This document shows, piece by piece, positions 1,208-49,225 of a stretch of 64,000 nt of DNA. The notes beneath the pieces are model-generated. The model had not been told where the DNA came from. It was given only the letters and a program-made list of their open reading frames with translations, and did no database searches. The stretch covers positions 5,587 through 69,586 of the IMG/VR virus record IMGVR_UViG_3300017766_003306; one strand, 5' to 3'. A program made the translations under genes and the position numbers. Source of the stretch: a virus. Lineage: Duplodnaviria > Heunggongvirae > Uroviricota > Caudoviricetes. The stretch's first letter is position 1; the number at the start of each line of letters is the position of its first letter.

Positions 1208-1252
1208 TTTTTCTATCGTCATATAAATAGACTAGACCTGATATATTTCTGC

Positions 1253-1281
1253 TTGACTTATTATGTATTTTGGTTTATTAT
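1253..1281 (+). promoter_or_regulatory. sigma70-like promoter TTGACT-N17-TATTAT
   Basis: -35 TTGACT 1253-1258, 17-nt spacer, -10 TATTAT 1276-1281; conserved motif TTCTATCGTCATATAAAT 1211-1228 upstream. Confidence 0.55.
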
Positions 1282-1333
1282 TATATTATGAGCTTTTGTA
1301 TAGTTCAAAAATTACACAGAAAGGTTAATTTCT

Positions 1334-1618
1334 ATGACTAAACCCATAATTGCAACGAGCTTAGAGGGGATGTCTAATTCTTCTACTCCTTACAATATGT
1401 ATAAACCTAAAACAGCTACACTATACTGGCGTGTGCATGAGAGACAGCTACTCCCTTATGAGTTTTCGGGGAGTTATGTGGACGTTCGTAGGTATGCTGA
1501 GAAGATAGCTAAGGAGCATAATTTAGTAGTTGATGAGTATGTATTCACAACGCCTAAAGCTTCTCAACCTGTTCACCCCCCTAAATCGTTTTACATTGAT
1601 TTGATTATAAAAGTATAA
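1334..1618 (+). CDS. hypothetical protein
   Basis: 94-aa ORF, AAAGG RBS, downstream of promoter. Confidence 0.4.
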   Translation: MTKPIIATSLEGMSNSSTPYNMYKPKTATLYWRVHERQLLPYEFSGSYVDVRRYAEKIAKEHNLVVDEYVFTTPKASQPVHPPKSFYIDLIIKV

Positions 1619-1630
1619 GGAAAATTAACT

Positions 1631-1882
1631 ATGGAAACTATTATCAGGTACGGAAAAGATCAGCAAACTAGAAAGTATTTTGAAACTTTAGATGAAGCTA
1701 TTAAAGAAGCGGTGTATATTTTAACGAACGAATCTACTAAACATATATACCAAGACACTAGATTAGTGACCTTTTATAGTGTTGCAGGAGGATCAGAAGG
1801 TGAGTGTATCGGGTCTTCTTTCGTAGATATTCACGGTAAACTACATAAAGTGTGTACGTTAAATATATTAAAGGTGGATTAG
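1631..1882 (+). CDS. hypothetical protein
   Basis: 83-aa ORF, AAGGAAA RBS. Confidence 0.4.
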   Translation: METIIRYGKDQQTRKYFETLDEAIKEAVYILTNESTKHIYQDTRLVTFYSVAGGSEGECIGSSFVDIHGKLHKVCTLNILKVD

Positions 1883-1883
1883 T

Positions 1884-2078
1884 ATGTTAGTTGAAGACCT
1901 TATAGAATTATTAGAAGAGTATAGGGGTTTAGAAATGCCTGTATACATCAACGGCGGAAACCCTAAACAAGTTAGAGTCGTTACAGATGTTATAGGGTTT
2001 TGTATAGAAACAGACCCTTGCAAAGAGTACATTACGGATAAAGATATTATTATTTGGGAGGATTCTGAGGATGAGTAG
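1884..2078 (+). CDS. hypothetical protein
   Basis: 64-aa ORF, GGTGGA RBS; stop overlaps ATG 2071 of next gene. Confidence 0.35.
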   Translation: MLVEDLIELLEEYRGLEMPVYINGGNPKQVRVVTDVIGFCIETDPCKEYITDKDIIIWEDSEDE

Positions 2079-2741
2079 TACACAACGCGGATATAGCCGT
2101 CATAAATCAGATTACTATGTGACCCCTGATTGGATTATTGATGAGCTATTTGATCATATTCATGAACTTTTTGAAGAACTAGACGGACGAATTGCCTTAG
2201 ACCCTTGCTCGGGGGGGGTAGCGTGAACGGTAGCTCAGTATTTTCTATGCCTTATGTTGAGGCTCTACGTCGTAACGGTTGGGAGACAGTGCATACATTA
2301 GATATTCGGCAAGACTCTTTAGCTGATATTAAGGAAGACTTCTTAACTTGGGATAACCCTGATAACATAGACTACGACTTAATAATTACAAACCCCCCGT
2401 TCTTACACGCTGAAAGCATAATCAGGAAAGCTTTAGCCTTAGTAGACTCTGAAAGTGGTAAAGTTATCATGCTACAACGGCTCAACTTCTTAGGGAGTGC
2501 AGAGAGAGACGACTTCTTCACTAAGTACCCCCCTAGTCGGATAATCGTACACGCTAAGCGTCCTTCTTTTGGGGGGATACAGCTAGAAGATGATGGGTCT
2601 ATCAACGTAACGAACAAAGGTAAGAATACTACCGATTCAATAGAGTATGCCCACTTTATTTGGGACAATACAGATAAGTCAGGAAATACGAGGTTTACTC
2701 GTATTAGGGCTGATTATTCTAAACTAAAGAAACAGAGGTAA
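2071..2741 (+). CDS. DNA methyltransferase (N6-adenine/N4-cytosine class), reading frame interrupted at a G8 homopolymer (2211-2218)
   Basis: Frame-1 ORF ATG 2071..TGA 2226 encodes MSSTQRGYSRHKSDYYVTPDWIIDELFDHIHELFEELDGRIALDPCSGGVA (AdoMet motif I-like DPCSGGG). Frame-0 ORF 2205..2741 carries catalytic motif IV (TNPPF). A 9th G would fuse both into one ~226-aa protein. Confidence 0.6.
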
Positions 2742-2743
2742 GT

Positions 2744-3037
2744 ATGCCTAAGAAAGCTAATAATTTTCAACCTTTTGAAGGAACTCATCCCCCTTATGAG
2801 ATCCCTGAAAAAAATAAACGAAACTTTGAAAAGTGGTTAAAAATATGCAGAAAGTATATGCCTGATGAGCCTATGACTTGTGAGTACGAAAAAGAAAAAG
2901 AGAGGGTGGATGAGTATTCTATTCTCTCTAATTCTTATATCGTTACTTTCGGGAGAGATAAGCTAACGTTTAAAGATGTTTTGACTTATAGAATAGGTAA
3001 CTCTAGTGTTAGCTATTATAACTGTAAACCTATTTAA
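2744..3037 (+). CDS. hypothetical protein
   Basis: 97-aa ORF immediately after MTase stop. Confidence 0.35.
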   Translation: MPKKANNFQPFEGTHPPYEIPEKNKRNFEKWLKICRKYMPDEPMTCEYEKEKERVDEYSILSNSYIVTFGRDKLTFKDVLTYRIGNSSVSYYNCKPI

Positions 3038-3083
3038 AACTTATACGATCGTATAAATACTGTATTCCGCTTTTATTCTTACT

Positions 3084-3112
3084 TGACTTTATGATTATTT
3101 TAGTCTATTATT
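3084..3112 (+). promoter_or_regulatory. sigma70-like promoter TTGACT-N17-TATTAT with upstream palindrome TATACGATCGTATA (3046-3059)
   Basis: -35 3084-3089, -10 3107-3112; ~120-nt promoter/leader cassette nearly repeated at 8200-8320. Confidence 0.55.
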
Positions 3113-3160
3113 AAAGTATGAAAACAAGTTAGTTTTCAACAATTAAACGGAGATTATTTT

Positions 3161-3784
3161 ATGCAAGAAACATTACCTAAGATTAGTTATTACGGCTTTA
3201 GACGTTACGACGAAGGCATAACAACGCCTTGGGGTGAATCTCAAGGGGGAGAGATAGTCTTTGAATACGACAACGAAACAAAAGAGAAGACTAGGGTATT
3301 AGAGCGTCATTACACAGCAGGACACGGCGGAGTAAAGGTCTATAAAGACTATCAGAAGTATCTTCCTAAAGGTCTTCGTAAGACTTGGTTAGAAGAAGAT
3401 TGTGAGTTTCCTGCTATTGCGTGGATGCCTAGAGATATATTCAAAACCTTCTATGAGACTTATAGTAGGTCAGCTATTAGTGACTCTGAGTTAGACCTAG
3501 TAATTAAAGACTGGAAAGCGTCTGTACTCAGTTGGCTCCCTGATGTTGAAAAACCTATCAAACAAACCCTTATGCCTAAACTAGAAGTAGGTATGTTTAT
3601 TAAGCTTACGACTACTAGCTACGGATTTACAGGAGAAACACCTAATACTGTTTTTCAAGTAGCAGAGACAGGCAGTCGTCTTAGGTTTTACGATAAAAGG
3701 ACAGGGCGTAAAGTTCGATTGAACGGTATTCGTAAAATCTTAAAAGAAGATAATTATACGATCGTAGAAAGTTGGGGTAGTTAA
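3161..3784 (+). CDS. hypothetical protein
   Basis: 207-aa ORF, GGAG RBS. Confidence 0.45.
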   Translation: MQETLPKISYYGFRRYDEGITTPWGESQGGEIVFEYDNETKEKTRVLERHYTAGHGGVKVYKDYQKYLPKGLRKTWLEEDCEFPAIAWMPRDIFKTFYETYSRSAISDSELDLVIKDWKASVLSWLPDVEKPIKQTLMPKLEVGMFIKLTTTSYGFTGETPNTVFQVAETGSRLRFYDKRTGRKVRLNGIRKILKEDNYTIVESWGS

Positions 3785-3952
3785 TATGGAAAAGTATTTC
3801 TGTAAACTGCCCGATTATTTTTACTCTTTTCAAGTCTATGATGTTAAGACTTTACAAGAAGCGAAGAAAGAGATTAGGCGTATGTGTGGGGGAAGACTCC
3901 CTAACGGTACAGAGTTTTGGTCTGAGTAGTTAATTAAGAAGGAGACTATATT

Positions 3953-4402
3953 ATGGGATGTGATATTCATATCGTGCAAGAGTTTAAGTATAAGGGTAAG
4001 TGGCTAGGTGCAAGACTCCTACATGGGAATAGAGATTATTCTTTCTTTGCTATTTTATGTGGCGTAAGAAAATACTATGAAACTTATGAGAATTGGAAGA
4101 GTATAGCAGAAGGCAGAGGTGTCCCAGAAGATGCAAGCGAATTGTCTAAGGCATTGAGTGAAGATTGGGGTAGTGATTTACATAGTGCAACCTACGCAAC
4201 CCCTTCAGAGATTATTCAAGCGGTAGAGTTCCTTAAAGCTCAGTTCCCTGATTTGCCCTATCTTCAACAAGATAACGGGAAGTTGTATAAGGACTTCATA
4301 GGGGTATATTACCCTAAAGAGGTTAGCGGTTTAGTTTCATTTGAAGGCGAACACCATAACCCTGACGAAGAAATTAGATATGTTATTTGGTTTGACAATT
4401 AA
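3953..4402 (+). CDS. hypothetical protein
   Basis: 149-aa ORF, AAGGAG RBS. Confidence 0.45.
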   Translation: MGCDIHIVQEFKYKGKWLGARLLHGNRDYSFFAILCGVRKYYETYENWKSIAEGRGVPEDASELSKALSEDWGSDLHSATYATPSEIIQAVEFLKAQFPDLPYLQQDNGKLYKDFIGVYYPKEVSGLVSFEGEHHNPDEEIRYVIWFDN

Positions 4403-4574
4403 GAAGGGTAAAAGTTATTATGAGTTCTAAAAAAGAAATGAAGCGTAGGTTAGATGAGATTGTGTACGAAAGACCTACTCCTACAGACAATACGTCAACC
4501 CAATTTAAAGACTCGGGGGACGGCTATAGCGGTACTCTAGCTTTGGGAGCTTTAATGTTATTACTTGCCGTAGC

Positions 4575-4838
4575 TTGTTTACTAGGGAGAGTTTAACTGT
4601 GTTTAAAGATTTTAAAATGTTCCCTGTATTTTGGGATACAGAAGCCTTATACACTATTCGTAACAAGAAAACTAATAGGGAATATAGTCATATGTACCCT
4701 ATCAAGCAAATATATAATACGGGTAGAGGTGAAATAGACTTACTCTTCGGGGATAATCATATTACTTTACGGATAACACAAGATGATTACTTTAATTGGG
4801 AAGTAAAGAAAACTAACGAGGGAGTATTGGGATGGTAA
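4575..4838 (+). CDS. hypothetical protein
   Basis: 87-aa ORF (alternative start ATG 4612). Confidence 0.3.
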   Translation: MFTRESLTVFKDFKMFPVFWDTEALYTIRNKKTNREYSHMYPIKQIYNTGRGEIDLLFGDNHITLRITQDDYFNWEVKKTNEGVLGW

Positions 4839-5110
4839 AGCCTCAACCACTTACATTCACTAAACGATGCGATCATTGCTTGTTTAGAAGTCGTAAGATT
4901 GTCGAAGATGAGAGGAAGCAAGAGATCATAGAGAATTGTATCGCTAATCAAAGTGCTTTCGTCTGTCACAAGACACACGATCTAGTATGCAAAGGGTTTG
5001 ATGACACGTTTCCGCTTGCTTCTCAAACACAAAGAATAGGTAAACGCTTAGGTCTTTGGAAGACTATTGATGAGGCTGAATACATGAAGACTAAGAAAGA
5101 AGGTAAATAA
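4832..5110 (+). CDS. hypothetical Cys-rich protein (CxxC...CHKTHDLVC, possible zinc finger)
   Basis: 92-aa ORF with 6 Cys in N-terminal 60 aa. Confidence 0.35.
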   Translation: MVKPQPLTFTKRCDHCLFRSRKIVEDERKQEIIENCIANQSAFVCHKTHDLVCKGFDDTFPLASQTQRIGKRLGLWKTIDEAEYMKTKKEGK

Positions 5111-5364
5111 TGAGCATTGTATACTTTGAAGTTGCCGATAATTTTATACTTAACTGTTCCCTAATGCCTTATATTTATTGGGGAGAAAGGAGTGTACATT
5201 TCGGTCAAACCCCTACTACTGCTCGGGCTATTGAACTGCACTCTGAAGAGATGGCTAGGAAATTATATTTAGATATTTTAGAGGCTTTAAAAGGGTCTAC
5301 TTCTCCCTATATGGGGGCAAAAGTGTTATCGTTTAGAAACTATCAAGACAAGGGAACGGTTTAA
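5110..5364 (+). CDS. hypothetical protein
   Basis: 84-aa ORF, start overlaps previous stop (TAATG). Confidence 0.35.
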   Translation: MSIVYFEVADNFILNCSLMPYIYWGERSVHFGQTPTTARAIELHSEEMARKLYLDILEALKGSTSPYMGAKVLSFRNYQDKGTV

Positions 5365-5828
5365 TTATGTACTACAAAATAACATACAACGGAGTAGAAG
5401 AACGGTTTAACTCTGTTGATAGTGCAAGTAAACGAGGCGAAGAATTGCTGAAACAGAAAGATGTAAAGTCTATTAGGGTTGAAGCTTTTGTGCATAATAG
5501 ACCAGACGCTAAGCCTGTTAGATACTACGATATGGAAAAGCCGTAAGGTAATCTCTATCGTCGTATACTTTATAGGATTAAGAGAGGGTGTAAACGTAGT
5601 GAACGTACATGAAAATAACCTTAGACTTCTCTATGAGAGCAATAAAGACAGTCCCAAACTTAGTAGGGAAGATCTTGAAGAGGCTATAAAAAGGCACGAC
5701 GAGGAAGAAGATCGGGACAGAGAAAGGACTAATTTTCAATTCTTTGCGATTATTCTAGGTTTCCCCCTTTTGGTCTTATTTGTATTTGTTATTCTAGTAT
5801 ATATACACTAGCCCCAACATAAAACACT

Positions 5829-5857
5829 TGACTTTTTGATTATTTTAGTCTATTATG
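5829..5857 (+). promoter_or_regulatory. sigma70-like promoter TTGACT-N17-TATTAT
   Basis: TTGACTTTTTGATTATTTTAGTCTATTAT nearly identical to promoter at 3084. Confidence 0.5.
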
Positions 5858-5909
5858 ATTATATACAAGCAAGTGTTTTTATTGTATAGTTTAACTTTAG
5901 GAGTAGTTT

Positions 5910-6098
5910 ATGAAAGACATTAAACAGCCCGTCCCTACTAAAGACGTGCTTAGATTAGTAAGTTTTGGCGTTGTGATTACAACGATGTTCGGGGTTGGAT
6001 ATGATGCAAGCTTTGAGCATACGCATCTTTGGGCTATGCTTGGAGTAATCGTTGGTTTATTTATTGTACTTGTTAGCTTTTGGGGAGATAGTTACTAA
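5910..6098 (+). CDS. hypothetical small membrane protein
   Basis: 62 aa, two hydrophobic helices, AGGAG RBS. Confidence 0.4.
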   Translation: MKDIKQPVPTKDVLRLVSFGVVITTMFGVGYDASFEHTHLWAMLGVIVGLFIVLVSFWGDSY

Positions 6099-6355
6099 TG
6101 CCTAAAAATAATAATCAAATTGACCTAAATAGTGCTATAGAGCGTAAGCTTAAACCTACAAAAGTAGGAGCAATCTACTTGGGTGGAGGGGAACACTTAA
6201 TTGAGTTCACATCAGGGGAAGAGATTATTACAGCTGATTATACAGGTGATTTTTGGTATGAGCAATTAAAAAGAATAAGAAAGCGAAAAAGTAATAGGGA
6301 AGTTCACGCTACAAGGCGTAAGAAAGGAAACGAAAGATGTTTAGAGAAGCAATAA
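6098..6355 (+). CDS. hypothetical basic protein
   Basis: 85-aa ORF, Lys/Arg-rich C-terminus. Confidence 0.35.
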   Translation: MPKNNNQIDLNSAIERKLKPTKVGAIYLGGGEHLIEFTSGEEIITADYTGDFWYEQLKRIRKRKSNREVHATRRKKGNERCLEKQ

Positions 6356-6367
6356 TCCCACAGGTGA

Positions 6368-6790
6368 ATGACAGTAATGCCGTTTGATGTAGCTAACGGC
6401 ATTACTGCTTATGCAGTTGGATTGTCAGGTTACTTAGTTCCAGCAGAGAAAGCTTTTGTGAACGAGCCGATCGGTGACTGGGAAGACTTTAAAGAAATTA
6501 CATTGTCCCCTAGTGCCATACTGAAACTCGCCCAAGCCCTGAATCCCCTTATCAAGGTGACTCCAAAGTTGCTTGAGGCTATGGAGAAAGCAATAGGGGC
6601 TAAGTTCTTAGGTGTTGAGCCTTGTGATTCTTTGATTCCTTTTTCAGTATGCACAGATGAGGAATACCCTTTTGATTTTGATTCTCATTTTACTGGTAAA
6701 GATTATTTGAAGAATCGATTTACGCATATAAAAGCCGATTTCCCCCTCGCTTTGCAGGTGTTGCTCGGCTTTACAGTGGAAGGTGTCTAA
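6368..6790 (+). CDS. hypothetical protein
   Basis: 140-aa ORF. Confidence 0.4.
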   Translation: MTVMPFDVANGITAYAVGLSGYLVPAEKAFVNEPIGDWEDFKEITLSPSAILKLAQALNPLIKVTPKLLEAMEKAIGAKFLGVEPCDSLIPFSVCTDEEYPFDFDSHFTGKDYLKNRFTHIKADFPLALQVLLGFTVEGV

Positions 6791-6792
6791 AG

Positions 6793-7209
6793 ATGATTAT
6801 AAAAAGTATTGATGCAATACAGGATGAAATGAACATCATTATAATTTCCTTCGAAGATAAAAATACGACAAATGATGATAGAGGATACTTTTTTTGGAGA
6901 ATGAGTAAACTTGTTAGAGATAACGCAAATAGGCACGTTGGAGAGTATATATTTAATACTTATTACCAAGAAAGTCTTAAAAAAATAAAAGAAAAATATC
7001 CTTACAAATTCCTAGAACTTGAACTGTATATCAATCGCCATGTGATGGAGATACTAGATAAAAATACTGATACTCGCCTTAACTACGCTAAATTGATAGA
7101 AAAATGTATAAGTACATTAAATGAGGAAAAAGGGGTATTACTAAACATTAGAACTTACATGAATTGCGAAGGTGATTGTGGAAAATGTAAGGTTTGTCTT
7201 AAAGAGTAA
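6793..7209 (+). CDS. hypothetical protein (C-terminal CEGDCGKCKVC cysteine cluster)
   Basis: 138-aa ORF. Confidence 0.4.
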   Translation: MIIKSIDAIQDEMNIIIISFEDKNTTNDDRGYFFWRMSKLVRDNANRHVGEYIFNTYYQESLKKIKEKYPYKFLELELYINRHVMEILDKNTDTRLNYAKLIEKCISTLNEEKGVLLNIRTYMNCEGDCGKCKVCLKE

Positions 7210-7249
7210 ACCTTTATACCTAATCTTACAACGGAAGGAGTGACGAAAG

Positions 7250-7681: not shown

Positions 7682-7686
7682 ATACT

Positions 7687-15750: not shown

Positions 15751-15936
15751 CTATATTTTTATTTTATATACATCAGCTATTCTATTTTTTATGTGGGTAG
15801 TAAGTGGCTTTCGACTTATCTCTATACACGCTATATAGCCCAAACTATACCCCAAAGCATTAGCTAATTCTCTTTGACTAATACGCCCTAACTGCCATCT
15901 AAGCTCTTTTAGTTTTGAAGCATCTTCTACTGTCAT
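15751..15936 (-). CDS. XRE-family helix-turn-helix transcriptional regulator (Cro/CI-like)
   Basis: 61 aa; LRWQLGRISQRELANALGYSLGYIACIE matches the HTH_XRE signature. Confidence 0.6.
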   Translation of the reverse strand: MTVEDASKLKELRWQLGRISQRELANALGYSLGYIACIEISRKPLTTHIKNRIADVYKIKI

Positions 15937-16757: not shown

Positions 16758-16970
16758 TTATGTATAAGATGGAGGAACTCTGACTTGAAACAAGTCAAAA
16801 AACTTCTTTGATAAGTTAGGAGTAAAAGTTCTTCTCCCTGATTCGATCAACGCTATAGTAGATCTTGAATACCCTAATTGATATGCTAATTGCTCTTGTG
16901 TAAGATTTAAAGCTACCCTAGCTTGTTTTAGCTTATCGTTAGGGTAGAAGGTTTCTGACTTTACGGACAT
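16758..16970 (-). CDS. XRE-family HTH transcriptional regulator
   Basis: 70 aa; ALNLTQEQLAYQLGYSRSTIALIESGRR canonical HTH_XRE. Confidence 0.6.
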   Translation of the reverse strand: MSVKSETFYPNDKLKQARVALNLTQEQLAYQLGYSRSTIALIESGRRTFTPNLSKKFFDLFQVRVPPSYT

Positions 16971-18685: not shown

Positions 18686-19216
18686 TTACCTCTTCGGAGT
18701 GTGTAAGGGGACACCGTAAACCCCCCTATCTGTGAACTTCTTTAGATATTCTATTGTTTTATGATCTTCTATGTCTGCTACGATATACTGTCTGTAATTT
18801 TCTTGTAAGCGTGTAGGGTACTCGTAACCGTCGTCTTCACATACAACACAATCGTAAGGTGTAAACTCCCAAATAGGGTATCCGTCATAATCTGTACCCT
18901 TATATCTAGCTAGATCATAAGTCTTTCTATCCCCTAGATCTCTGAAAACCCATATTTTAGCGTTTTCATCTAGCCCCTTAAGAACTGCATCAGTTACTAG
19001 CACAGGAGTATTAGGATCTTTAGTTTTATTCTCTATGAGGGTATCTATAGGTATATTAAAAGTTTGTGATATTTTCCCTAAAGCGTGTATTGAAGGGTAT
19101 CTCTTTCCGTGTTCAAACTGGTGTATAGCAGGTTGAGATAGACCTACTCGTTTAGAAAACTCGTACTGAGTTAGACCTAAGCTCTCTCTAAGATGTTTTA
19201 ATTTATCGTGGATCAT
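18686..19216 (-). CDS. XRE-family HTH regulator with C-terminal domain (repressor-like)
   Basis: 176 aa; N-terminal LRESLGLTQYEFSKRVGLSQPAIHQFEHGKRYPS HTH_XRE, plus ~110-aa C-terminal domain. Confidence 0.55.
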   Translation of the reverse strand: MIHDKLKHLRESLGLTQYEFSKRVGLSQPAIHQFEHGKRYPSIHALGKISQTFNIPIDTLIENKTKDPNTPVLVTDAVLKGLDENAKIWVFRDLGDRKTYDLARYKGTDYDGYPIWEFTPYDCVVCEDDGYEYPTRLQENYRQYIVADIEDHKTIEYLKKFTDRGVYGVPLHTPKR

Positions 19217-41955: not shown

Positions 41956-41985
41956 AAGTTTAGTCCTTTTTATGCTTTTAGTATA

Positions 41986-42360: not shown

Positions 42361-42361
42361 C

Positions 42362-43195
42362 TTATCGTCCTCCTCCGCCCATTCTCTCTACCCTCCGTGC
42401 GTGTACTGCATTAACATAGTTTTCGTAAGCTTTTATAACCCGTGTATTGTACTTGATCCTAGTCGTAAATCCGAGAGGGCATCTGTCTACGCCTGACTCC
42501 CTACGCTCTGTGGGTTGACACTGTATACCCCTTACTGGATCTATCCTTAACTTGTTCCCAAAAGCCGTGTACTGAGCTAAGCTAGAAGCGTCTACGCTAT
42601 CGGGGAAGCATCTTATAATCAAGTCGTGCCTAGAACATCCTAGAATGTGTATCTTAGTCTCTTCAGGTATGAGATTTCTAATTGTTTTGTAGATCTTAAT
42701 AAAGTCTTCTCTGCCTTCTTTCGTTAGCATAGGTAAGCCTAAAGACGATATAGAGATGTAATTGTCTGAAGCTTCTGTAATTTCTTGGATTAAGCTTGCA
42801 GACATATCAGGTCTAATTATTCCCGCAACGGGTACACCGTTTGCTTTCATTCGGGCTGTATTTTCTAACCACTGAGAATATCTGCCTTGATCTACAGTCA
42901 TTACGACGTTGTAGTAGTCTTTGTTTCTATGGTAGTAGTCGCACAAGTCGTCAACCTCTACCATCTTCCCATGCTTTCTAGCTGTGAATACCCCCGAGTC
43001 TAGCATAAATCTAAAGTCAAACCCTTCAGGTATATTAGAGCTTTCAAGTATTTTTAAAATGTAGGGGTCTACCCCCGATACGGCATCTTTTCTGTTCCAG
43101 TACGAAAGCAGGTTGCTTATTCCTGCTTCTAAGCAGTGAGTTATTACATTTGGATCCCAACTGCTTGAATAGTATTTAAACATTGATAGTCTCAT
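42362..43195 (-). CDS. dpdA: DpdA-like DNA-guanine transglycosylase (TGT family)
   Basis: 277 aa; FMLDSGVFTARKHG (TGT DSGGFQ-type motif), Cys/His cluster in C-terminal third; embedded among preQ0-pathway genes. Confidence 0.6.
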   Translation of the reverse strand: MRLSMFKYYSSSWDPNVITHCLEAGISNLLSYWNRKDAVSGVDPYILKILESSNIPEGFDFRFMLDSGVFTARKHGKMVEVDDLCDYYHRNKDYYNVVMTVDQGRYSQWLENTARMKANGVPVAGIIRPDMSASLIQEITEASDNYISISSLGLPMLTKEGREDFIKIYKTIRNLIPEETKIHILGCSRHDLIIRCFPDSVDASSLAQYTAFGNKLRIDPVRGIQCQPTERRESGVDRCPLGFTTRIKYNTRVIKAYENYVNAVHARRVERMGGGGR

Positions 43196-43952
43196 CTAAC
43201 TTTTCTGAGTTTTCTACACTCTCTGTAGATACCGATTGTTCGGGATTGTAGTCTTGGTGAGCTTTTAAAACTCGTAGCAAGTCATCCATACTGAAAGTAA
43301 TTTTTCCGACGTTTTTCTGTATGCCTAATGCGTGAAATACGACTCTTATCTCTTCTAAAGTAAATGACTCTTCTGTGTATAGAGATAGGTTATATTGAGA
43401 AACGGAAGGGGTATAGTTTTCAGTTTCGTAAGTCTTGTCTACGTCTTGGGACTCGTCGAATAAATACGCATCGTCTACAGATATATCTAAAGAAACGTCT
43501 GATAGCATTTCCATAACAGAATCGAGTTCTTGCTGTTTAAATGGCAAGAAAGACAACGTGTCCGCTGTACCCTCTTCACTGCTTAAAATATCCATAAGTA
43601 AGCTGTCGAGCTTAGATCTATCAGTAGCAAACCTAGTCTCATTAGTTGAGATGGCTATTTGTTTTGCTTTTTCGAGAGAGATTTTGCCTAAGTTATAACA
43701 GTGTACTTTGTTATACCCTAAAGTAGTGAATGCTTCTAGCCTATGATTACCGTTTACGACTTCGTATAAGCCATCATCAAGCTCTCGAATAATGATCGAC
43801 TCAACTTGACCATTGTTTTTGATATTAGATACAAGCTTTTTCATAAGCTGTGCATCCTGTTTTTTGTAGTTCCATTCAGCTGATACTAATTTCTCTGGGT
43901 TAATATCTGCCCACCCAATAGGTAATGATGCTGTCATTATATAGCTCCCCAC
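43176..43952 (-). CDS. ParB-like nuclease domain protein (paralog 1, DpdB-like context)
   Basis: 258 aa; LYEVVNGNHRLEAF... ParB/Srx N-domain signature; directly upstream of dpdA-like gene. Confidence 0.6.
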   Translation of the reverse strand: MGSYIMTASLPIGWADINPEKLVSAEWNYKKQDAQLMKKLVSNIKNNGQVESIIIRELDDGLYEVVNGNHRLEAFTTLGYNKVHCYNLGKISLEKAKQIAISTNETRFATDRSKLDSLLMDILSSEEGTADTLSFLPFKQQELDSVMEMLSDVSLDISVDDAYLFDESQDVDKTYETENYTPSVSQYNLSLYTEESFTLEEIRVVFHALGIQKNVGKITFSMDDLLRVLKAHQDYNPEQSVSTESVENSEKLDETINV

Positions 43953-43966
43953 TATGTTTATATTTT

Positions 43967-44599
43967 CTACGACCGTATACTTGTTAAGAACTCGTCTTTA
44001 AGCCCTTGATTTTCTTTTACTTCGTCTGATACTTTACTTGTGACTGTAGTGCTACTCGTATTGTTTACGCCCCTCCAACTCATGCAAGTATGTATAGCTT
44101 CGATATGTACGATCAAGGCGGAAGGATTCAGTATTTGGATAAGGTACTCAAAGATCTGAGAAGTAAGCTCTTCCTGTATTTGAGGTCTACGAGCATAGTA
44201 ATCGACTATACGAGCAAACTTAGATAGCCCTAATGTATTTTCTTTTGGGATGTACCCGATATGACACTTACCTAAAATAGGGGCGAAGTGATGGCTACAC
44301 ATAGATTTAAGTTCTATGTTCTTTACAACGACTAACTGATCTGCTTTCCCTACGTTTGGGAACACAGTTATTTTAGGGGGGTCTGTAAATCTTCCTGCAC
44401 ACACTTCATGTAAGTACATTTTAGACATACGCTTAGCTGTTTCATTAGTGTTATGATCTTGTGCTGTGTCTATTTCTAGCACGTCCAGCACTCTCTGAAA
44501 CGCTGATTCAAGCTCTCTTAGCTTATACCCTGTTTCGCTCTGTTTTAGCACTCGTAGATGCTCATTTGATTTATTTGGCATTCTGAGGTTCCTTCGCAA
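43967..44599 (-). CDS. folE: GTP cyclohydrolase I
   Basis: 210 aa; SMCSHHFAPILGKCHIGYIP...LGLSKFARIVDYYARRPQIQEELT matches FolE catalytic core (CEHH..GK.HIAYIP). Confidence 0.8.
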   Translation of the reverse strand: MRRNLRMPNKSNEHLRVLKQSETGYKLRELESAFQRVLDVLEIDTAQDHNTNETAKRMSKMYLHEVCAGRFTDPPKITVFPNVGKADQLVVVKNIELKSMCSHHFAPILGKCHIGYIPKENTLGLSKFARIVDYYARRPQIQEELTSQIFEYLIQILNPSALIVHIEAIHTCMSWRGVNNTSSTTVTSKVSDEVKENQGLKDEFLTSIRS

Positions 44600-44929: not shown

Positions 44930-46891
44930 CTAAACAAACTCTCCGTCTTCCTCAAAATCGTCATCTTCATAATCTTCATAGTCCGCATTTTCTTCCATTC
45001 TAGCTTTAGCGAACGGGTTAGCTAATATCATCATAGCCTCCCTACTCTGTAATGCGTTTGAGACTGCTCCACACACTGCGTCGGCTAAATCCTTTGATCC
45101 GCTAGGTAAGTGGTCTATCTTTACTTTAGATCCCGCTGTAAGCTCTACAAGCTGTGTAAGCTCTTTTAGAAGTATCTCATTGTAGGGTAGACGTACACGC
45201 CCTTCATATATAGCAGTTCTCAAGTTTTGATAGTGTACTGGGTCTCTGTCTACAGATAAAGTCTCTGCTATAATCCCTTCGCCTCTTAAGATAGTCAACG
45301 ATTCAAGACTTTGATAACTATCATAAGTTACTTTTCCTATCGTTAAGCCTTGATCTCGTTTTAGTTTCGTGATTAGTTTTCTAGGCTTAGAAATATCTAC
45401 AGGGTATACTTGTGAAGGCTCTATGCTGTACACATAATCGACCGTTATTATCGGCTTCATCTCTCCGCCTACACCCTTAACCCCCGAAACGTGTGCCATT
45501 GCTTGAGCTGTTCTATCCCCTGTATGGGATAAGTCAGTATGAAAGTATCTAGGTAATTGTTTGTTAGGGATTTCACCGCAGATGACAGGGTAGTGATGCC
45601 CCCCTTCTGTGTAGACTTGAACGACATAGTTATCTACTTCTGAAAGTTTAGGGAGCGTGTAGTCTATGCACTCGTATAGACGACTAGGAAGAGTTAGGTA
45701 AGACGAACTTCCCGCTGTCGTTATCCCCGCGTGATCTCGTTGTGCTGTAAGGGGATTTGTTTCAAATGAAAGTCTGTATTCGTTAGGAATATCTACGACG
45801 ATAGAATCTTTAACCCCGTCTTCATCATCTTCTAGTATCTTGGGTTCTACTGTTTTGCTACCGCATTGAAATCTAAATGTACCTGTCGTAAATAGATTTT
45901 TAGGGGCGACTTCCCATTTTGTTTTTCGTCTATATCGCCAAACTAAGTTCGACTTTGTAGCCTTTAAAGAATTGTGTACCCCCTCAATAAAGTCCTCTTC
46001 ATAGTTGGGTGAAGAGCATAAATCTATTCCCCCAAAAGATAAGGAGTCTGTAATAAATCGAGACTCATATCGTTTTCTCATAGTGTCGAATAATTTATCC
46101 GCGTGGTTAAATCGTCTTTCTCCATGATCCGCCCGTCTTGATTCTTCTACAACATCAAAGAAGTTCGCCTCATCTATAACGCCGTAAACGATAGCTAAAG
46201 ACAATAAAGCACTCGGTTCTAGTGAGTGTGCCATCATTAGCTCGATATTGTTAGAAAGCTGAATACTCGTTGTCTTTTCTTTTTTATATGTCACTGTCTC
46301 TTTGAAGAAGGGGATCTCTTTAAATAGTTGGTAAATGGGTTTATAGATTTGGGTCTCAGTAATGGAAGGTTTAGCACTGATCAAATAAATGAGCATGGGA
46401 AAGTTAGAGTCTAACCCTTTATAGATAAAGTGAGGCGTATTAAAACAACATAATGTAGTTAAGATGAATAAGGCTTTAGTTACGACACAGTAAGACTTAC
46501 CCGTACCTAATGTACTGTTATTGATGTCGATAGCGGGCATAGGAACGCCTGACATAATATGCGGGCAAGAGATGGCAATATCTTTTCTAACTTCTTCCCA
46601 AAAGTTAAGTCTTCCCCCTAAATACTCGTCGTTGTCTATAAACTCGTCTATTGTGGGAGGTATTCTATTTGCTAGCATTAGCATCTTAAAGTAGTCGGCA
46701 TTATCGTGATCGAGTAGTTGCTTAAACGCATATTCACAATATCTAGCAGTCTGTATGTTTCCGTAAGCTTCATTAAAGTTTATTTGACGCTCTAATTCAT
46801 TTAGCATCTTTATTCTATTAGCTTCTGTAGAGTTACGCACAGTGCTTAACAAAAGATCTAAGTCTTTTGAGAATCTATTGTTTTTCCTCAC
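44930..46891 (-). CDS. terL: terminase large subunit
   Basis: 653 aa; Walker A STLGTGKSY, Walker B VIDEANFF, C-terminal nuclease region with SKDLADAV; acidic tail. Confidence 0.8.
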   Translation of the reverse strand: MRKNNRFSKDLDLLLSTVRNSTEANRIKMLNELERQINFNEAYGNIQTARYCEYAFKQLLDHDNADYFKMLMLANRIPPTIDEFIDNDEYLGGRLNFWEEVRKDIAISCPHIMSGVPMPAIDINNSTLGTGKSYCVVTKALFILTTLCCFNTPHFIYKGLDSNFPMLIYLISAKPSITETQIYKPIYQLFKEIPFFKETVTYKKEKTTSIQLSNNIELMMAHSLEPSALLSLAIVYGVIDEANFFDVVEESRRADHGERRFNHADKLFDTMRKRYESRFITDSLSFGGIDLCSSPNYEEDFIEGVHNSLKATKSNLVWRYRRKTKWEVAPKNLFTTGTFRFQCGSKTVEPKILEDDEDGVKDSIVVDIPNEYRLSFETNPLTAQRDHAGITTAGSSSYLTLPSRLYECIDYTLPKLSEVDNYVVQVYTEGGHHYPVICGEIPNKQLPRYFHTDLSHTGDRTAQAMAHVSGVKGVGGEMKPIITVDYVYSIEPSQVYPVDISKPRKLITKLKRDQGLTIGKVTYDSYQSLESLTILRGEGIIAETLSVDRDPVHYQNLRTAIYEGRVRLPYNEILLKELTQLVELTAGSKVKIDHLPSGSKDLADAVCGAVSNALQSREAMMILANPFAKARMEENADYEDYEDDDFEEDGEFV

Positions 46892-47618
46892 TGTTTTGTT
46901 TTTCCCCTATCCCTTCTTTGACTACCGCTTTAAGTATATCAAATACACGAGAAGCTTCTATCTGCCCTTGAGTCAATCCCGTATCTCCAACAGGCTTGTG
47001 CTTAGAGATCAACTCTAAGTTTCTTTGACCTGTCTTTACTACTTCGTTCATGGTGAGTATAGCATCTTTTTGGGACTTAGAAAGCCCCCCACTCTTCTTA
47101 GATTCTTTCATATCAGTAGCTATATTAGAAAATAGATTTACTGCTACATGGTCTAAATAGGATTGAGAACGCTGTAACGCTCCACATACATCGTATGTCT
47201 TAGCTTCATTTTTTATTTTGTGTTCGATAATTTCAAAAAGTAATTGCGTAAAATCGTAATCTAACCCTAAACCCTTCGATACTAATAAAGGCTTAAGACC
47301 TTTCAATCTTTGATCAGCTACTTTATCTAACAAGTTATGCAAGCACACAATGTCGCCATGCTCATCTCTCAGCTTAAGCGTTGCTTGTCTGACCCCTTGC
47401 TGTTGCTTAGAGAGTGCATCATCAGTAGCTAACTTTTCAGCATCTATAAAATCTTCACACAGTTTTGTACAGATCTCAGCAGTCTCGGGGGATTGTCTAT
47501 CTCCATAGATACTATCAACTAAAGCACTCGATATTTGAGTGATTCTAGGGTATCTATAGGTTCTGTTTGTGGGTGTTAATTTTGAAGGTTTTTTAGGTTT
47601 GTTATTGAAGTGGAACAT
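46875..47618 (-). CDS. putative terminase small subunit
   Basis: 247 aa immediately upstream of and overlapping terL; position-based only. Confidence 0.3.
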   Translation of the reverse strand: MFHFNNKPKKPSKLTPTNRTYRYPRITQISSALVDSIYGDRQSPETAEICTKLCEDFIDAEKLATDDALSKQQQGVRQATLKLRDEHGDIVCLHNLLDKVADQRLKGLKPLLVSKGLGLDYDFTQLLFEIIEHKIKNEAKTYDVCGALQRSQSYLDHVAVNLFSNIATDMKESKKSGGLSKSQKDAILTMNEVVKTGQRNLELISKHKPVGDTGLTQGQIEASRVFDILKAVVKEGIGEKQNSEEKQ

Positions 47619-47693
47619 TGTAGCCTCTCAAAAGGGTTGGGCAGGCTATCAACGTAGCCCACCCAAGTTTGTTTTTTGTGTATTGTAGCTTTA

Positions 47694-49046
47694 TTATACT
47701 ACAAGAGGTTGAGATGCAATATCAGCACGATCTTCTACAGTAAGTCTTTCTTCGTAGTGGATGTCGACATTGAAACGACGCTCTACCGCTTCTAGGATTT
47801 CTGTAAGCGATCCTGTTGTAAATACACTCTCAGCATCCGAGCCGTTAATGTAGTTCTCACAGAGCTGTACAAGCACCATAGAATCAAGACGGTTGTCGGT
47901 AGAGATGTTCATAGGAGACGCATCGGCAATCAACTGTTTAGCTTGCTCAAATACTTGCACTTCTTCAGGGAAGAGCTTAATCTTAACAGCCGTCATATTG
48001 ATAGCTTGTACTTCATTCACAGGCTTGATTTTCTCATCAGTAAACGAAGAGTCTTGGTCAAAGTCTTCTTTAAGAGATTCTTTGAACTTCTCTAAATCTT
48101 CAACACTCGAAATCGCTCTAGCTCTCTCTAACAAGACATCAGCATTCTCATTAGAGATGTGATTCACCATAGCATATAAACGAGTAATACCTAAATTACC
48201 TGCTTGCTCTACTGTAACGCCCGCAGAAGAGAACGCTACATAAACTTGCATATCTCGATACAATTTTACTTTTTTATATTCTGTAATGCCTGTTTCTTCA
48301 TTTGTGAGCCAGTCTAAGAATGTAGGAGTCCCAAACTTTGTGTAGCCCTTCTCTTTCGCCCACTCGATATGTTCGCCATTCTCTAAAGCCCCTACTAAGG
48401 CTCCTCCGAAAGCGAAAGCAGATTGGTTTTTCTGTTCAAGCATTGCTTTACCGACAGCTAACCATGACCCTTTTTCTTTACGCAAGTCTGTCATGTATTG
48501 CTCTTCTACACGATGCAAAGCTTCTACTCTATCTGTCCCTTTAATCTTACGAGAATAGAGATCGGATACGGCGTGTTCTACATCACTTTGAGCATCATTT
48601 TCAGGAGTAGAGAAGAACGTATGTTTAGCTAAACTCCACAAGCCTTCAATAGTTGAAAACTTAGATTCTAAGTCTTTTACTTTCTTAGGGTTGCCTAACG
48701 ACTCAGGAGACACAGCTTCAAACGTAACTTCACTAGACGTTGATTTTTGAAATCCAACAATGATAGAATCTTCATTGATTGTCTCTACTGCATATACTCC
48801 ACAACCAGTCACTAATTTTTGTTTTTTATTCAAAACAGTGTTTTCGCCGTAGCCCACAAACGTGTAGCATTTACCAATTTCGATAGCTTGTTTAGTTGTA
48901 CCTTGAGCTAAATCTGCTACTGCACCCTCTAAAGACGATTCATCTACATTAGCTTCAACAGTTCCAGTAATTAAAGTTGCATGTGTCAGGTCGATAGTGA
49001 CCTCCGTACTATTTTCAATTTTAGTACTTTTTTTCTTCTTAGACAT
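47694..49046 (-). CDS. hypothetical protein
   Basis: 450-aa ORF. Confidence 0.45.
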   Translation of the reverse strand: MSKKKKSTKIENSTEVTIDLTHATLITGTVEANVDESSLEGAVADLAQGTTKQAIEIGKCYTFVGYGENTVLNKKQKLVTGCGVYAVETINEDSIIVGFQKSTSSEVTFEAVSPESLGNPKKVKDLESKFSTIEGLWSLAKHTFFSTPENDAQSDVEHAVSDLYSRKIKGTDRVEALHRVEEQYMTDLRKEKGSWLAVGKAMLEQKNQSAFAFGGALVGALENGEHIEWAKEKGYTKFGTPTFLDWLTNEETGITEYKKVKLYRDMQVYVAFSSAGVTVEQAGNLGITRLYAMVNHISNENADVLLERARAISSVEDLEKFKESLKEDFDQDSSFTDEKIKPVNEVQAINMTAVKIKLFPEEVQVFEQAKQLIADASPMNISTDNRLDSMVLVQLCENYINGSDAESVFTTGSLTEILEAVERRFNVDIHYEERLTVEDRADIASQPLVV

Positions 49047-49225
49047 TGTATGTCTCCTGTATACGTTATTGATTAAGGTAAAGAGCCTTGACTTTTTTAA
49101 GTCGTTCTCTGTTCGTATTCTAATATATTAAACTTATAAAGTCAATAGTTTTTAATCCCATTTTAAAAAGCTTAATGAAATTAGATGTTTTCTATGACGA
49201 TATACTAAATCTATATAGTAAGGAT

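What the first reader, a model, noticed from the sequence alone, without database searches (positions are those of the whole stretch)
1211..49206. Conserved 18-bp near-palindromic motif TTCTATCGTCGTATAAAT recurring at 12 or more intergenic sites
Close variants occur at 1211 (TTCTATCGTCATATAAAT), 3046 (perfect palindrome TATACGATCGTATA), 5566, 8203, 10376 (reverse), 20905, 26993 (TTCTACGACGATATAAAT), 29926, 36873, 43968 and 49189. Weaker copies lie at 9655 and 9820. The motif is always intergenic, usually 20-30 bp upstream of a TTGACT -35 box or next to gene starts on either strand. The core TATCGTCGTATA/TATACGACGATA has dyad symmetry typical of a dimeric regulator operator. Three XRE HTH regulators are encoded in the window.
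Basis: seen in the sequence. Interest (0 to 1): 0.55.

Follow-up and report, generated by a model that had tools for sequence, protein, structure and literature searches.

The report
Dispersed 16-bp regulator-binding motif in phage
A 16-base, partly palindromic DNA word (TTMTAYSGYCGTAKAA) recurs at 23 places in this fragment of an uncultured tailed phage. It lies mostly just upstream of genes but often inside the preceding gene, which is the pattern expected for the docking sites of one phage-wide gene regulator: real, but an ordinary kind of feature.

Summary
The motif is real and far beyond chance. The degenerate core TTMTAYNNNCGTAKA has 16 distinct exact sites against 0.13 expected. A weight matrix finds 23 sites at ≥15 bits against 0.33 expected. 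TACGACGATA is the most frequent 10-mer in the window.

The description needs correcting. Only three sites lie 23-24 nt upstream of a TTGACT box, and those three belong to a ~140-bp duplicated early-promoter cassette. Only the outer arms are palindromic.

Placement is still non-random. Sixteen of 23 sites lie within 180 nt upstream of a start codon (25% expected, P≈9e-6). They form two groups, at 24-50 nt and at 110-177 nt. Eight lie within 15 nt of the upstream stop codon, two abut terminators and two sit at +1 of promoters. There is no orientation bias.

Best reading: dispersed operator or roadblock sites of one dimeric, sequence-specific phage regulator. This resembles P1 C1 operators, mycobacteriophage stoperators and RK2 KorB sites. 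The three XRE HTH proteins are the only recognisable candidates. The two ParB_N-like proteins are acidic, lack an HTH and belong to a 7-deazaguanine DNA-modification cluster. The binder is unproven, and no relatives exist for comparison.

The parts
1211..1226 (+). Motif site TTCTATCGTCATATAA. It starts 3 nt after the stop of ORF 557-1207 and 42 nt before the TTGACT -35 at 1253. Part of an early-promoter cassette.
   Evidence: 24.2 bits
3041..3056 (.). Perfect 16-bp palindrome TTATACGATCGTATAA. It starts 3 nt after the stop of ORF 2744-3037 and 42 nt before the -35 at 3083. Part of an early-promoter cassette.
3754..3769 (-). Site TTCTACGATCGTATAA in the last 30 nt of ORF 3161-3784. It ends 16 nt before the ATG of small ORF 3786-3929.
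   Evidence: 22.0 bits
5553..5568 (+). Site CTCTATCGTCGTATAC. It starts 6 nt after the stop of ORF 5367-5546 and ends about 30 nt before the RBS and GTG of the next gene.
   Evidence: 22.0 bits
8203..8218 (+). Consensus site TTCTATCGTCGTATAA. It starts 15 nt after the stop of ORF 7687-8187 and 41 nt before the -35 at 8244. Part of an early-promoter cassette.
   Evidence: 27.5 bits
10376..10391 (-). Site TTATATCGTCGTATAC. It directly follows the T-tract of the terminator hairpin at 10397-10420(-), inside the ORF-poor region 9443-10723.
   Evidence: 25.4 bits
13942..13957 (-). Site TTCTACGGTCGTAGAT inside ORF 13783-14175(-). Its centre is 163 nt upstream of the start of the 1020-aa gene 10724-13786.
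   Evidence: 22.4 bits
20910..20925 (+). Site TTCTATGATCGTATAA. It lies just downstream of the minus-strand promoter TTGACT-17-TAAAAT (called), with an overlapping TATAAT read in the sequence. The site centre is near +3. This is the first promoter of the operon that contains the three XRE genes.
   Evidence: 22.8 bits
23725..23740 (+). Site TTATATGGTCGTAGAC inside ORF 23595-24212(-). Its centre is 134 nt upstream of the start of the RtcB gene (23598).
   Evidence: 25.2 bits
26986..27001 (-). Site TTATATCGTCGTAGAA. It starts 6 nt downstream of TGTGTATAAT, lies in the last 33 nt of ORF 26969-27268, and ends 30 nt before the ATG of the 39-aa membrane ORF 26836-26955.
   Evidence: 24.8 bits
29916..29931 (.). 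Near-palindromic site TTATACGGTCGTATAA in intergenic DNA. Its centre is 136 nt upstream of the start of the tail-sheath gene (29787).
   Evidence: 22.6 bits
32608..32623 (+). Site TTATATCGCCATATAA. It abuts the bidirectional terminator hairpin at 32624-32653. The dyad centre is 38.5 nt upstream of the first base of the -35 (TTGACT-17-TATTAT at 32577, minus strand).
   Evidence: 21.9 bits
39404..39419 (+). Site TTCTATCGTCGTATAA inside ORF 39237-39617(-). Its centre is 144 nt upstream of the start of ParB_N-like gene 38467-39267.
   Evidence: 24.6 bits
40538..40553 (+). Site TTATATGGTCGTAGGC inside the QueD-like ORF 40425-40889(-). It overlaps the -35 of a 9/12 promoter-like site at 40540(-). 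Its centre is 123 nt upstream of the QueE start.
   Evidence: 21.6 bits
43965..43980 (+). Site TTCTACGACCGTATAC. It overlaps the stop codon of FolE (43967-44599) and ends 27 nt before the ATG (43937) of ParB_N-like gene 1.
   Evidence: 20.6 bits
44185..44200 (-). Weaker site TACTATGCTCGTAGAC inside FolE.
   Evidence: 17.2 bits
45791..45806 (-). Site TTCTATCGTCGTAGAT deep inside the 653-aa ORF 44930-46891(-). No nearby start codon.
   Evidence: 23.0 bits
49190..49205 (-). Site GTATATCGTCATAGAA in intergenic DNA. The dyad centre is 52.5 nt upstream of the first base of the -35 (TTGACT-17-TAGAAT at 49145, minus strand).
   Evidence: 17.4 bits
51438..51453 (-). Site TTCTACAGCCGTATAA inside ORF 50272-52137(+). 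It ends 18 nt before an in-frame GGGGGA RBS-like sequence and an ATG at 51472, which opens a CPWH zinc-finger (primase-like) segment.
   Evidence: 21.9 bits
52987..53002 (-). Site TTCTATCGCCGTAGAA inside the 3' end of ORF 51968-53059(+). It ends 68 nt upstream of the perfect-consensus promoter TTGACA-17-TATAAT at 53071.
   Evidence: 27.1 bits
57958..57973 (-). Site TTCTATCGTCGTAGAA. It ends 6 nt before the stop codon of ORF 57347-57982 and 18 nt before the ATG of primase gene 57992-59050. It overlaps a 9/12 promoter-like site, TAGTCA-17-TAGAAT.
   Evidence: 25.8 bits
61474..61489 (+). Site TTCTATCGCCGTAGAA inside helicase ORF 60272-61792(+).
   Evidence: 27.1 bits
61990..62005 (+). Site TTCTATCGCAGTATAA inside ORF 61798-62259(+).
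   Evidence: 20.5 bits
36874..36889 (-). Marginal site TTATATCGTGATAGAA, ending 21 nt before the portal start codon (36852). Membership is uncertain.
   Evidence: 12.6 bits; about 1.8 hits at ≥11 bits expected by chance
18686..19216 (-). Candidate binder (inferred, not shown): a 176-aa protein with an N-terminal XRE/RstR-like HTH and a C-terminal domain of unknown function.
16758..16970 (-). Candidate binder (inferred): a 70-aa basic XRE HTH protein, pI 9.9.
15751..15936 (-). Candidate binder (inferred): a 61-aa basic HTH protein, pI 9.7.

Best explanation
The 16-bp word tTTMTAYSGYCGTAKAAa is the recognition site of one sequence-specific DNA-binding protein, most likely a phage-encoded HTH dimer. 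Its two subunits would read the symmetric outer arms, TTMTA and TAKAA, whose centres lie about one helical turn apart. The 23 or more sites form a genome-wide regulon.

Binding at sites that overlap +1 or the -35 of promoters would block initiation. These are 20910, 26984, 40538 and 57956. Binding at sites in gene junctions, just past stop codons or terminators, or 110-177 nt upstream of the next gene would either act as a roadblock to read-through transcription or modulate the downstream promoter.

The likeliest binders are the three XRE-family HTH proteins. They are encoded in the operon that starts at the motif-bearing promoter near 20.95 kb, which would make the circuit autoregulatory.

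Shown: the existence of the motif, its statistics, its anatomy and its placement. Inferred: protein binding, the sign of regulation and the identity of the binder. The confidence of 0.6 is for 'binding site of a sequence-specific regulator of gene expression'. That an XRE protein of this window is the binder I put at about 0.3.
For: - Over-representation is extreme, and the core is the top 10-mer in the window.
- The outer arms are complementary in 14 to 23 of 23 sites. On average 5.1 of 8 position pairs are palindromic, against 2.0 in random 16-mers.
- Orientation is mixed relative to transcription and to strand, as expected for a symmetric binder.
- Nine of 23 centres lie in the 12.5% of the window that is non-coding (P=1e-3).
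- Sixteen of 23 lie within 180 nt upstream of a start codon, against 25% expected (P=9e-6). Six lie at 15-60 nt (P=2.5e-3) and ten at 105-180 nt (P=4e-5).
- Two sites sit immediately downstream of good -10 elements, and two overlap weaker promoter-like sites.
- Sites inside ORFs match the consensus as well as intergenic ones: 7 exact matches to the degenerate pattern against 0.13 expected for the whole window. This shows selection on the DNA word itself.
- Three XRE HTH proteins are encoded. Two are small and basic, and one is RstR-like.
- No other DNA-binding family was found among about 75 ORFs scanned.
Against: - There is no experimental or comparative link between the motif and any protein.
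- The phage has no relatives in any collection searched, so co-variation of binder and site could not be tested.
- The inner 6 bp are asymmetric, and 15 of 23 sites share the non-palindromic left half TATCG (read from the site list). This is unusual for a simple homodimer.
- No site lies within the 7 kb that holds the XRE genes. The nearest is the operon promoter, 1.7 kb upstream.
- About half of the strong consensus promoters (4392, 5828, 24285, 27346, 39648, 49803, 50085, 55121) have no site.
- Six sites lie more than 200 nt from any start codon.
- The position windows used were chosen after seeing the data.
Confidence: 0.6

Rival explanations
1. The motif is a parS/OB-like site for the two phage ParB_N-like proteins. 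They would act as KorB-like or Noc-like clamps, or as a loading site for the DpdA 7-deazaguanine DNA-modification machinery.
For: - The motif is a 16-bp near-palindrome, dispersed and often inside genes, like parS, Noc-binding sites and KorB OB sites.
- Sites lie directly upstream of both ParB_N-like genes. Site 43965 ends 27 nt before the ATG of one, and the centre of site 39404 is 144 nt before the other.
- The AF2 model of ParB-like 1 aligns over about 145-150 columns with Noc, ParB and KorB N-terminal plus DNA-binding-domain structures.
Against: - Pfam and NCBIfam match only the N-terminal ParB domain, and no HTH model hits.
- The segment that corresponds to the ParB DNA-binding domain is strongly acidic: 3 K/R against 13 D/E in residues 106-160. 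Overall pI is 4.5-4.7, and the C-terminus is predicted to be disordered.
- The box II motif is GNHR rather than GERR.
- Homologues at 45-58% identity lie inside deazaguanine clusters of unrelated phages, next to the likely DpdA gene. Those loci show no such repeated motif.
Confidence: 0.05
2. The motif is a site for a host protein, such as a global transcription factor or a nucleoid-associated protein, which the phage exploits.
For: - The site geometry is a 16-bp word with 5-bp arms flanking 6 central bp, which resembles CRP/FNR-type sites (own knowledge).
- In the three early cassettes the dyad centre lies about 69.5 nt upstream of the inferred transcription start, a class I activator-like position.
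- The host is unknown, so this cannot be excluded.
Against: - The motif matches no operator consensus that I could recall (own knowledge, not a database test).
- Distances to the -35 vary: 34.5, 34.5, 33.5, 38.5, 52.5 and 76.5 nt, derived from the coordinates. They are not in helical phase.
- The promoters concerned already match the sigma-70 consensus closely and should not need an activator.
- A literature search for the core words returned only unrelated primer sequences.
Confidence: 0.1
3. The motif is itself a promoter element for a phage-modified or phage-encoded RNA polymerase or sigma factor, that is, a middle or late promoter.
For: - The motif is enriched upstream of start codons.
- The right arm resembles a -10 element or the T4 late box. 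TATAAATA occurs at 1211, 3041 and 8203, and TAGAAT at 26984 and 57956.
Against: - Orientation relative to the direction of transcription is roughly 12 forward to 11 reverse.
- Both arms are equally conserved.
- In three cases the motif lies 41-42 nt upstream of a separate near-consensus sigma-70 promoter, and in two cases downstream of one.
Confidence: 0.05
4. The motif is a DNA-level site unrelated to transcription: a target for site-specific nicking, recombination, replication priming, condensation or packaging.
For: - Ten sites lie deep inside ORFs, and six lie more than 200 nt from any start codon.
- Average spacing is about one site per 2.8 kb along all modules.
- Two sites lie directly upstream of the two primase-like coding segments, 51472 and 57992.
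Against: The enrichment just upstream of genes and at promoter +1 positions is not predicted by this reading. No nickase or recombinase could be tied to the motif. The only nuclease domain found is a small LHH/HNH ORF at 17264-17605.
Confidence: 0.1
5. The motif is only a by-product of duplicated sequence, namely copies of a longer repeat.
For: The sites at 1211, 3041 and 8203 lie in about 140-bp homologous promoter and 5'UTR cassettes. A fourth cassette, at 5775-5912, carries a decayed copy.
Against: The other 20 sites share no flanking similarity beyond about 21 nt (family D4). Information content falls to background within 1-2 nt of the 16-mer.
Confidence: 0.02

Closest known systems
Stoperators and operators of cluster A mycobacteriophage repressors (L5 gp71, Bxb1, TipsytheTRex)
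   Same: More than 20 copies of one short word are spread over the whole phage genome. They occur both at promoters and in short gaps between genes. They are proposed to block initiation and elongation respectively (PMC9283540). Here there are 23 sites, many of them at gene junctions or just past stop codons.
   Different: Stoperators are 13-bp asymmetric sites bound by a monomer, and their orientation correlates strictly with transcription (PMC9283540). Here the site is 16 bp with symmetric arms, shows no orientation bias, and about 10 sites lie deep in ORFs. No lysogeny module is seen in the window.
Phage P1 C1 repressor operators (own knowledge: a ~94-kb myovirus with 17-bp operators at many dispersed loci)
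   Same: A large tRNA-carrying myovirus-type genome in which many widely dispersed copies of one operator control unlinked operons.
   Different: P1 operators are asymmetric and overlap promoters. Here only 2-4 sites overlap promoter elements. No C1 homologue was detected, although this was not specifically searched.
RK2 KorB OB operators, ParB-parS sites and Noc-binding sites
   Same: The site is a palindrome-like word of similar length. Copies are dispersed, lie at variable distances from promoters and some lie inside genes. ParB_N-fold proteins are encoded, and the model matches KorB, Noc and ParB structures over about 145-150 columns.
   Different: The ParB_N-like proteins here lack a detectable HTH and are acidic where ParB binds DNA. 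They travel with DpdA/queuosine-pathway genes in other phages.
Cro/CI-type (XRE family) operators of lambdoid phages and CTXphi RstR
   Same: The site is dyad-symmetric and 14-18 bp long, with arms one helical turn apart. XRE HTH proteins are encoded, one with its best match to the RstR family (55 bits, below the 80-bit cut-off). Two sites overlap promoter +1.
   Different: The sites are not clustered in a divergent immunity region beside the regulator gene. There are 23 or more dispersed sites, many of them intragenic, and the centre of the site is asymmetric.

Membership tests
Cro/CI-type (XRE) repressor operator set | Dyad-symmetric site of about 14-18 bp | tested here: inconclusive
   The outer arms are symmetric: pairs 1/16, 2/15, 4/13 and 5/12 are complementary in 14 to 23 of 23 sites. 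The inner three pairs are complementary in only 8-9 of 23.
Cro/CI-type (XRE) repressor operator set | Sites overlap core promoter elements | tested here: inconclusive
   This is clear at 20910 and 26984. It is possible at the weak promoter-like sites overlapping 40538 and 57956. It is not so at the other 19 sites.
Cro/CI-type (XRE) repressor operator set | Operators are clustered next to the regulator gene | tested here: not met
   No site lies between 13957 and 20910. The XRE genes lie at 15.7-19.2 kb, and the nearest site is at the operon promoter.
Cro/CI-type (XRE) repressor operator set | An XRE protein binds the site | not testable with these tools
   This needs EMSA or DAP-seq. The HTH of the 176-aa XRE protein has no homologues for a co-variation test.
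Mycobacteriophage-type stoperators | More than 20 copies dispersed over the genome | tested here: met
   There are 23 sites in 64 kb.
Mycobacteriophage-type stoperators | Asymmetric 13-mer whose orientation follows the direction of transcription | tested here: not met
   The site is 16 bp with symmetric arms, and orientation is about 12 forward to 11 reverse.
Mycobacteriophage-type stoperators | Located at promoters and in short intergenic gaps | tested here: inconclusive
   Thirteen of 23 sites lie in intergenic DNA or within about 30 nt of a gene end. Ten lie deeper in ORFs.
ParB-parS / KorB-OB / Noc-NBS | A ParB-family protein with an HTH DNA-binding domain is encoded | tested here: not met
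   Only the ParB_N domain is detected. The segment equivalent to the DNA-binding domain is acidic, pI is 4.5-4.7, and the C-terminus has low pLDDT.
ParB-parS / KorB-OB / Noc-NBS | Palindromic site of 13-16 bp, in several copies, some inside genes | tested here: met
Phage-specific promoter (middle or late) motif | Constant orientation and constant distance to transcription or gene starts | tested here: not met
   Orientation is mixed. Distances to start codons range from 24 to 950 nt, and the motif lies upstream of some sigma-70-type promoters and downstream of others.

The most novel reading that the evidence does not exclude
An apparently virulent, 7-deazaguanine-modified freshwater myovirus uses a symmetric, orientation-independent, stoperator-like system. 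One regulator would bind 30 or more sites placed at gene boundaries and inside genes, to insulate or shut off transcription units genome-wide. The regulator may read the modified DNA. A less likely variant is that the sites are loading points for the ParB_N/DpdA modification machinery.
Probability: 0.2. Interest if true: 0.6.

Novelty: new member of a known kind. Interest (0 to 1): 0.35.

Why it matters
If the motif is the site of a single regulator, it defines the largest regulon of a phage lineage that has no cultured or sequenced relatives. It gives a direct handle for dissecting that phage's transcription programme, because the PWM and 23 mapped sites are available. It would also be a case of genome-wide site placement that extends into coding DNA. 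That raises the question of how a regulator reads DNA that is probably 7-deazaguanine-modified at the conserved CG core.

As it stands, the finding is a typical conserved regulatory word in a phage genome. It is useful for annotation but not surprising to a specialist.

Tried and rejected
**Looking for relatives, to test conservation of the motif or co-variation of binder and site**
- Megablast of 32 kb of the window against 50,697 phage records found no hit.
- tblastn with the portal protein gave at most 26% identity.
- IMG/VR scans with the portal, ParB-like and XRE-176 proteins gave only L047. It shares the C-terminal domain of XRE-176, not its HTH, and shows no motif enrichment.
- A 5.8-billion-protein search with the portal returned only the protein itself and one hit at 25% identity.
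- The HTH of XRE-176 returned nothing.
- A genome-contig scan with XRE-176 returned nothing.

**Fetching the rest of the 101-kb source contig**
- This failed. Only identical short contigs from JGI 3300005662 and ENA ERZ27247881 were returned.

**Motif scans of public collections**
- IMG/VR gave 46 single chance hits.
- The one multi-hit locus, L107, is an ORF-free tandem satellite unrelated to the phage.

**Other leads**
- A literature search for the core words returned only primers.
- The ParB/parS idea was followed and largely rejected.
- A link to the DpdA recognition sequence was considered. The partial bacterial DpdA motif CxGCxG (PMC10164549) does not fit TCGTCG, and a 16-bp target once per 3 kb would be useless for anti-restriction.
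- An RNA-level hairpin was rejected because the major class, TATCGTCGTA, cannot fold.
- A fixed helical phase relative to the -35 was rejected because the distances are 33.5 to 76.5 nt.

Full report
**Context.** The window is part of an uncultured tailed phage with about 38% G+C. It encodes a tail sheath, a portal, an RtcB ligase, a helicase and a primase, and seven tRNAs. Genes fall into three blocks. Block 1 (1-9442, plus strand) holds small genes of unknown function behind strong sigma-70-type promoters. Block 2 (about 10.7-49.7 kb, minus strand) and block 3 (50.3-63.4 kb, plus strand, replication genes) make up the rest. The phage has no close relative. There is no megablast hit among 50,697 phage records. 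The portal is at most 26% identical to any isolate. Nothing related is in IMG/VR. In 5.8 billion proteins the portal finds only itself, on a 101,459-bp JGI contig, and one hit at 25% identity. Identical short contigs exist in JGI sample 3300005662 and ENA ERZ27247881.

- The 10-mer TATCGTCGTA occurs 9 times against my own estimate of about 0.5, and is the most frequent 10-mer in the window.
- The degenerate core TTMTAYNNNCGTAKA has 16 distinct exact sites against 0.13 expected.
- An 18-nt weight matrix separates 23 sites (17.2-27.5 bits) from a few marginal ones (≤12.9 bits). Simulated sequence gives 0.33 hits at ≥15 bits, and 21 of 23 leave-one-out scores are ≥15 bits.

Site 36873 is marginal at 12.6 bits. 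Sites 9655 and 9820 are at noise level.

**Anatomy.** The consensus is t-TTMTAYSGYCGTAKAA-a. T4, A5, T12 and A13 are invariant, and C10 is present in 22 of 23 sites. The outer arms are complementary: pairs 1/16, 2/15, 4/13 and 5/12 match in 14, 21, 23 and 23 of 23 sites. The inner six bases are not symmetric. Fifteen sites share the left half TATCG and six have TACGR. One site, 3041, is a perfect 16-bp palindrome. Information falls to background within 1-2 nt of the 16-mer. The "near-palindrome" description is therefore only half right.

**Where the sites are.** The claim "always intergenic" is wrong.
- Placement is still far from random. Nine centres lie in the 12.5% of the window that is non-coding (P=1e-3).
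- With the small ORFs 3786-3929, 5367-5546 and 26836-26955 added, 16 of 23 centres lie within 180 nt upstream of a start codon, against 25% expected (P=9e-6).
- These form two groups: six at 24-50 nt and ten at 110-177 nt. The windows were chosen after seeing the data.
- Eight sites lie within 15 nt of the stop codon of the upstream gene: 1211, 3041, 3752, 5553, 8203, 26984, 43965 and 57956.
- Two directly abut strong terminator hairpins, at 10397-10420 and 32624-32653.
- Site 51436 lies 18 nt before an in-frame RBS-like sequence and an ATG at 51472, which opens a CPWH zinc-finger segment.
- Orientation relative to transcription is mixed, about 12 to 11.

**Relation to promoters.** Among about 15 strong sense promoters, seven have a site within 120 nt.
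- At 1211, 3041 and 8203 the motif starts 41-42 nt before TTGACT.
- These three belong to a ~140-bp homologous cassette made of motif, A/T-rich stretch, -35, -10, 5'UTR and RBS. A fourth copy at 5775-5912 has a decayed motif, and the core promoter recurs at 50083.
- The genes behind the 3041 and 8203 cassettes are unrelated to each other.
The other 20 share nothing beyond about 21 nt.
- At 20910 and 26984 the site lies immediately downstream of a good -10, at about +1 to +20, where a bound protein would block RNA polymerase.
- At 40538 and 57956 the site overlaps weaker promoter-like sequences.
- Elsewhere, the distances from dyad centre to -35 are 38.5, 52.5 and 76.5 nt. These are not in helical phase with the 34.5 nt of the cassettes.
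- Eight strong promoters have no site.

**Who binds it?** The three XRE HTH ORFs are real.
- One is a 176-aa protein with an RstR/434-like HTH and a C-terminal domain. That domain also occurs, with a different N-terminus, in one IMG/VR phage.
- The other two are small basic proteins of 70 and 61 aa.
- All three lie in the operon that starts at the motif-bearing promoter near 20.95 kb, so autoregulation is plausible.
- No other DNA-binding family turned up among about 75 ORFs scanned.

I followed one alternative in depth. The window carries a 7-deazaguanine DNA-modification cluster. It holds FolE, a TGT/DpdA-like protein, a group 1 glycosyltransferase, QueD, QueE and two paralogous ParB_N-like proteins. 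Motif sites lie directly upstream of both ParB_N-like genes. Against this idea:
- These proteins match only the N-terminal ParB domain.
- They are acidic (pI 4.5-4.7), including the segment equivalent to the ParB DNA-binding domain.
- Their C-terminus is predicted to be disordered.
- Their homologues lie inside deazaguanine clusters of unrelated phages that lack any such repeated word.

They are better read as accessory proteins of the modification pathway, by analogy with bacterial DpdB (PMC10164549), than as the motif binder.

**Most likely mechanism.** The sites are docking sites for one dimeric, sequence-specific regulator that reads the two outer arms on one face of the helix.
- At promoter-overlapping sites it would repress initiation.
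- At gene-junction, post-terminator and upstream intragenic sites it would act as a roadblock or insulator, or would modulate the downstream promoter.
- This works like the dispersed operator sets of phage P1 C1, the operators and stoperators of cluster A mycobacteriophages (PMC9283540), and the KorB OB sites of RK2.
- It is not a member of any of these families. The stoperator hallmarks (asymmetric 13-mer, orientation dependence) were tested and not met. The ParB-HTH requirement is not met. The classical clustered Cro/CI arrangement is not met.
- Existence, statistics, anatomy and placement are shown. Protein binding, the sign of regulation and the identity of the binder are inferred.

**Limits.** There are no relatives, so no conservation or co-variation test was possible. 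The other ~37 kb of the contig could not be fetched. The one metagenome motif scan was swamped by chance single hits. The host is unknown.

**Verdict.** This is a new member of a known kind of feature, of moderate to low interest.

Noticed in passing
window 38467-44599 (minus strand): A 7-deazaguanine DNA-modification cluster. It holds FolE (43967-44599), ParB_N-like 1 (43176-43937), a TGT/DpdA-like protein (42362-43195), a 124-aa unknown, a group 1 glycosyltransferase (40903-41955), QueD (40425-40889), QueE (39658-40422), a 126-aa unknown and ParB_N-like 2 (38467-39267). No QueC was seen in the window. This suggests a carboxy-deazaguanine or a glycosylated derivative rather than preQ0.
   Followed up: partly
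L051 6675-10621; L053 5939-10675: Homologues of the ParB_N-like protein (45-58% identity over the N-terminal half) lie at the end of QueD/QueE/FolE(/QueC)/DpdA-like clusters in unrelated phage contigs. One cluster again includes a glycosyltransferase. This points to a conserved accessory role, analogous to DpdB, in phage deazaguanine modification.
   Followed up: partly
window 9443-10723: A 1.3-kb stretch between the convergent gene blocks has no convincing ORF. It contains a perfect 28-nt inverted repeat with a 14-nt spacer at 10558-10627, just downstream of the 1020-aa gene. It could be an origin, a cruciform or a large terminator. Rfam gave only spurious miRNA-hairpin hits.
   Followed up: partly
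window 1195-1336, 3025-3163, 5775-5912, 8187-8323; core promoter also at 50083-50117 and 53115-53142: A family of about 140-bp early promoter and 5'UTR cassettes (TTGACTTTATGA...TATTAT...ATGAAAACAAGT...GGAGATTA) is placed in front of unrelated genes.
   Followed up: partly
window 50272-52137 and 51968-53059: The 621-aa ORF contains an in-frame GGGGGA RBS-like sequence and an ATG at 51472. This opens a CPWHEDE zinc-finger segment of primase type, so there may be an internal start or a fused gene. The ORF also overlaps the next ORF by 170 nt. A second primase-like gene lies at 57992-59050.
   Followed up: no
window 21475-23598 (minus strand): The RtcB ligase ORF is 707 aa. Residues ~57-401 match PHROG profiles of unrelated proteins (PhoH-like, ribonucleotide reductase). 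This pattern is typical of a shared intein insertion.
   Followed up: no
window 30616-31612 (minus strand): A cluster of seven tRNA genes: Arg-TCT, Thr-TGT, Asp-GTC, Met-CAT (two copies), Tyr-GTA and Ser-TGA.
   Followed up: no
window 18686-19216; L047 9776-10306: The C-terminal ~100 aa of the 176-aa XRE protein is 56% identical to a protein of the same length in an IMG/VR contig, but the N-termini are unrelated. The domain therefore looks like a swappable module.
   Followed up: partly
window 16297-16545, 17264-17605, 31629-32366, 26836-27268: Other small annotations: a DNA-ligase Nlig-Ia-like 82-aa ORF, an LHH/HNH nuclease, an SPFH/Band 7 protein, and a TM2-domain protein followed by a 39-aa hydrophobic ORF (possibly a lysis or membrane module).
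   Followed up: no
L107 3600-3960: This metagenome contig was pulled in by the motif scan. It carries an ORF-free tandem repeat of about 105 bp containing TTTCTACGAYGATAGAA. It looks like a eukaryote-type satellite and is unrelated to the phage.
   Followed up: yes
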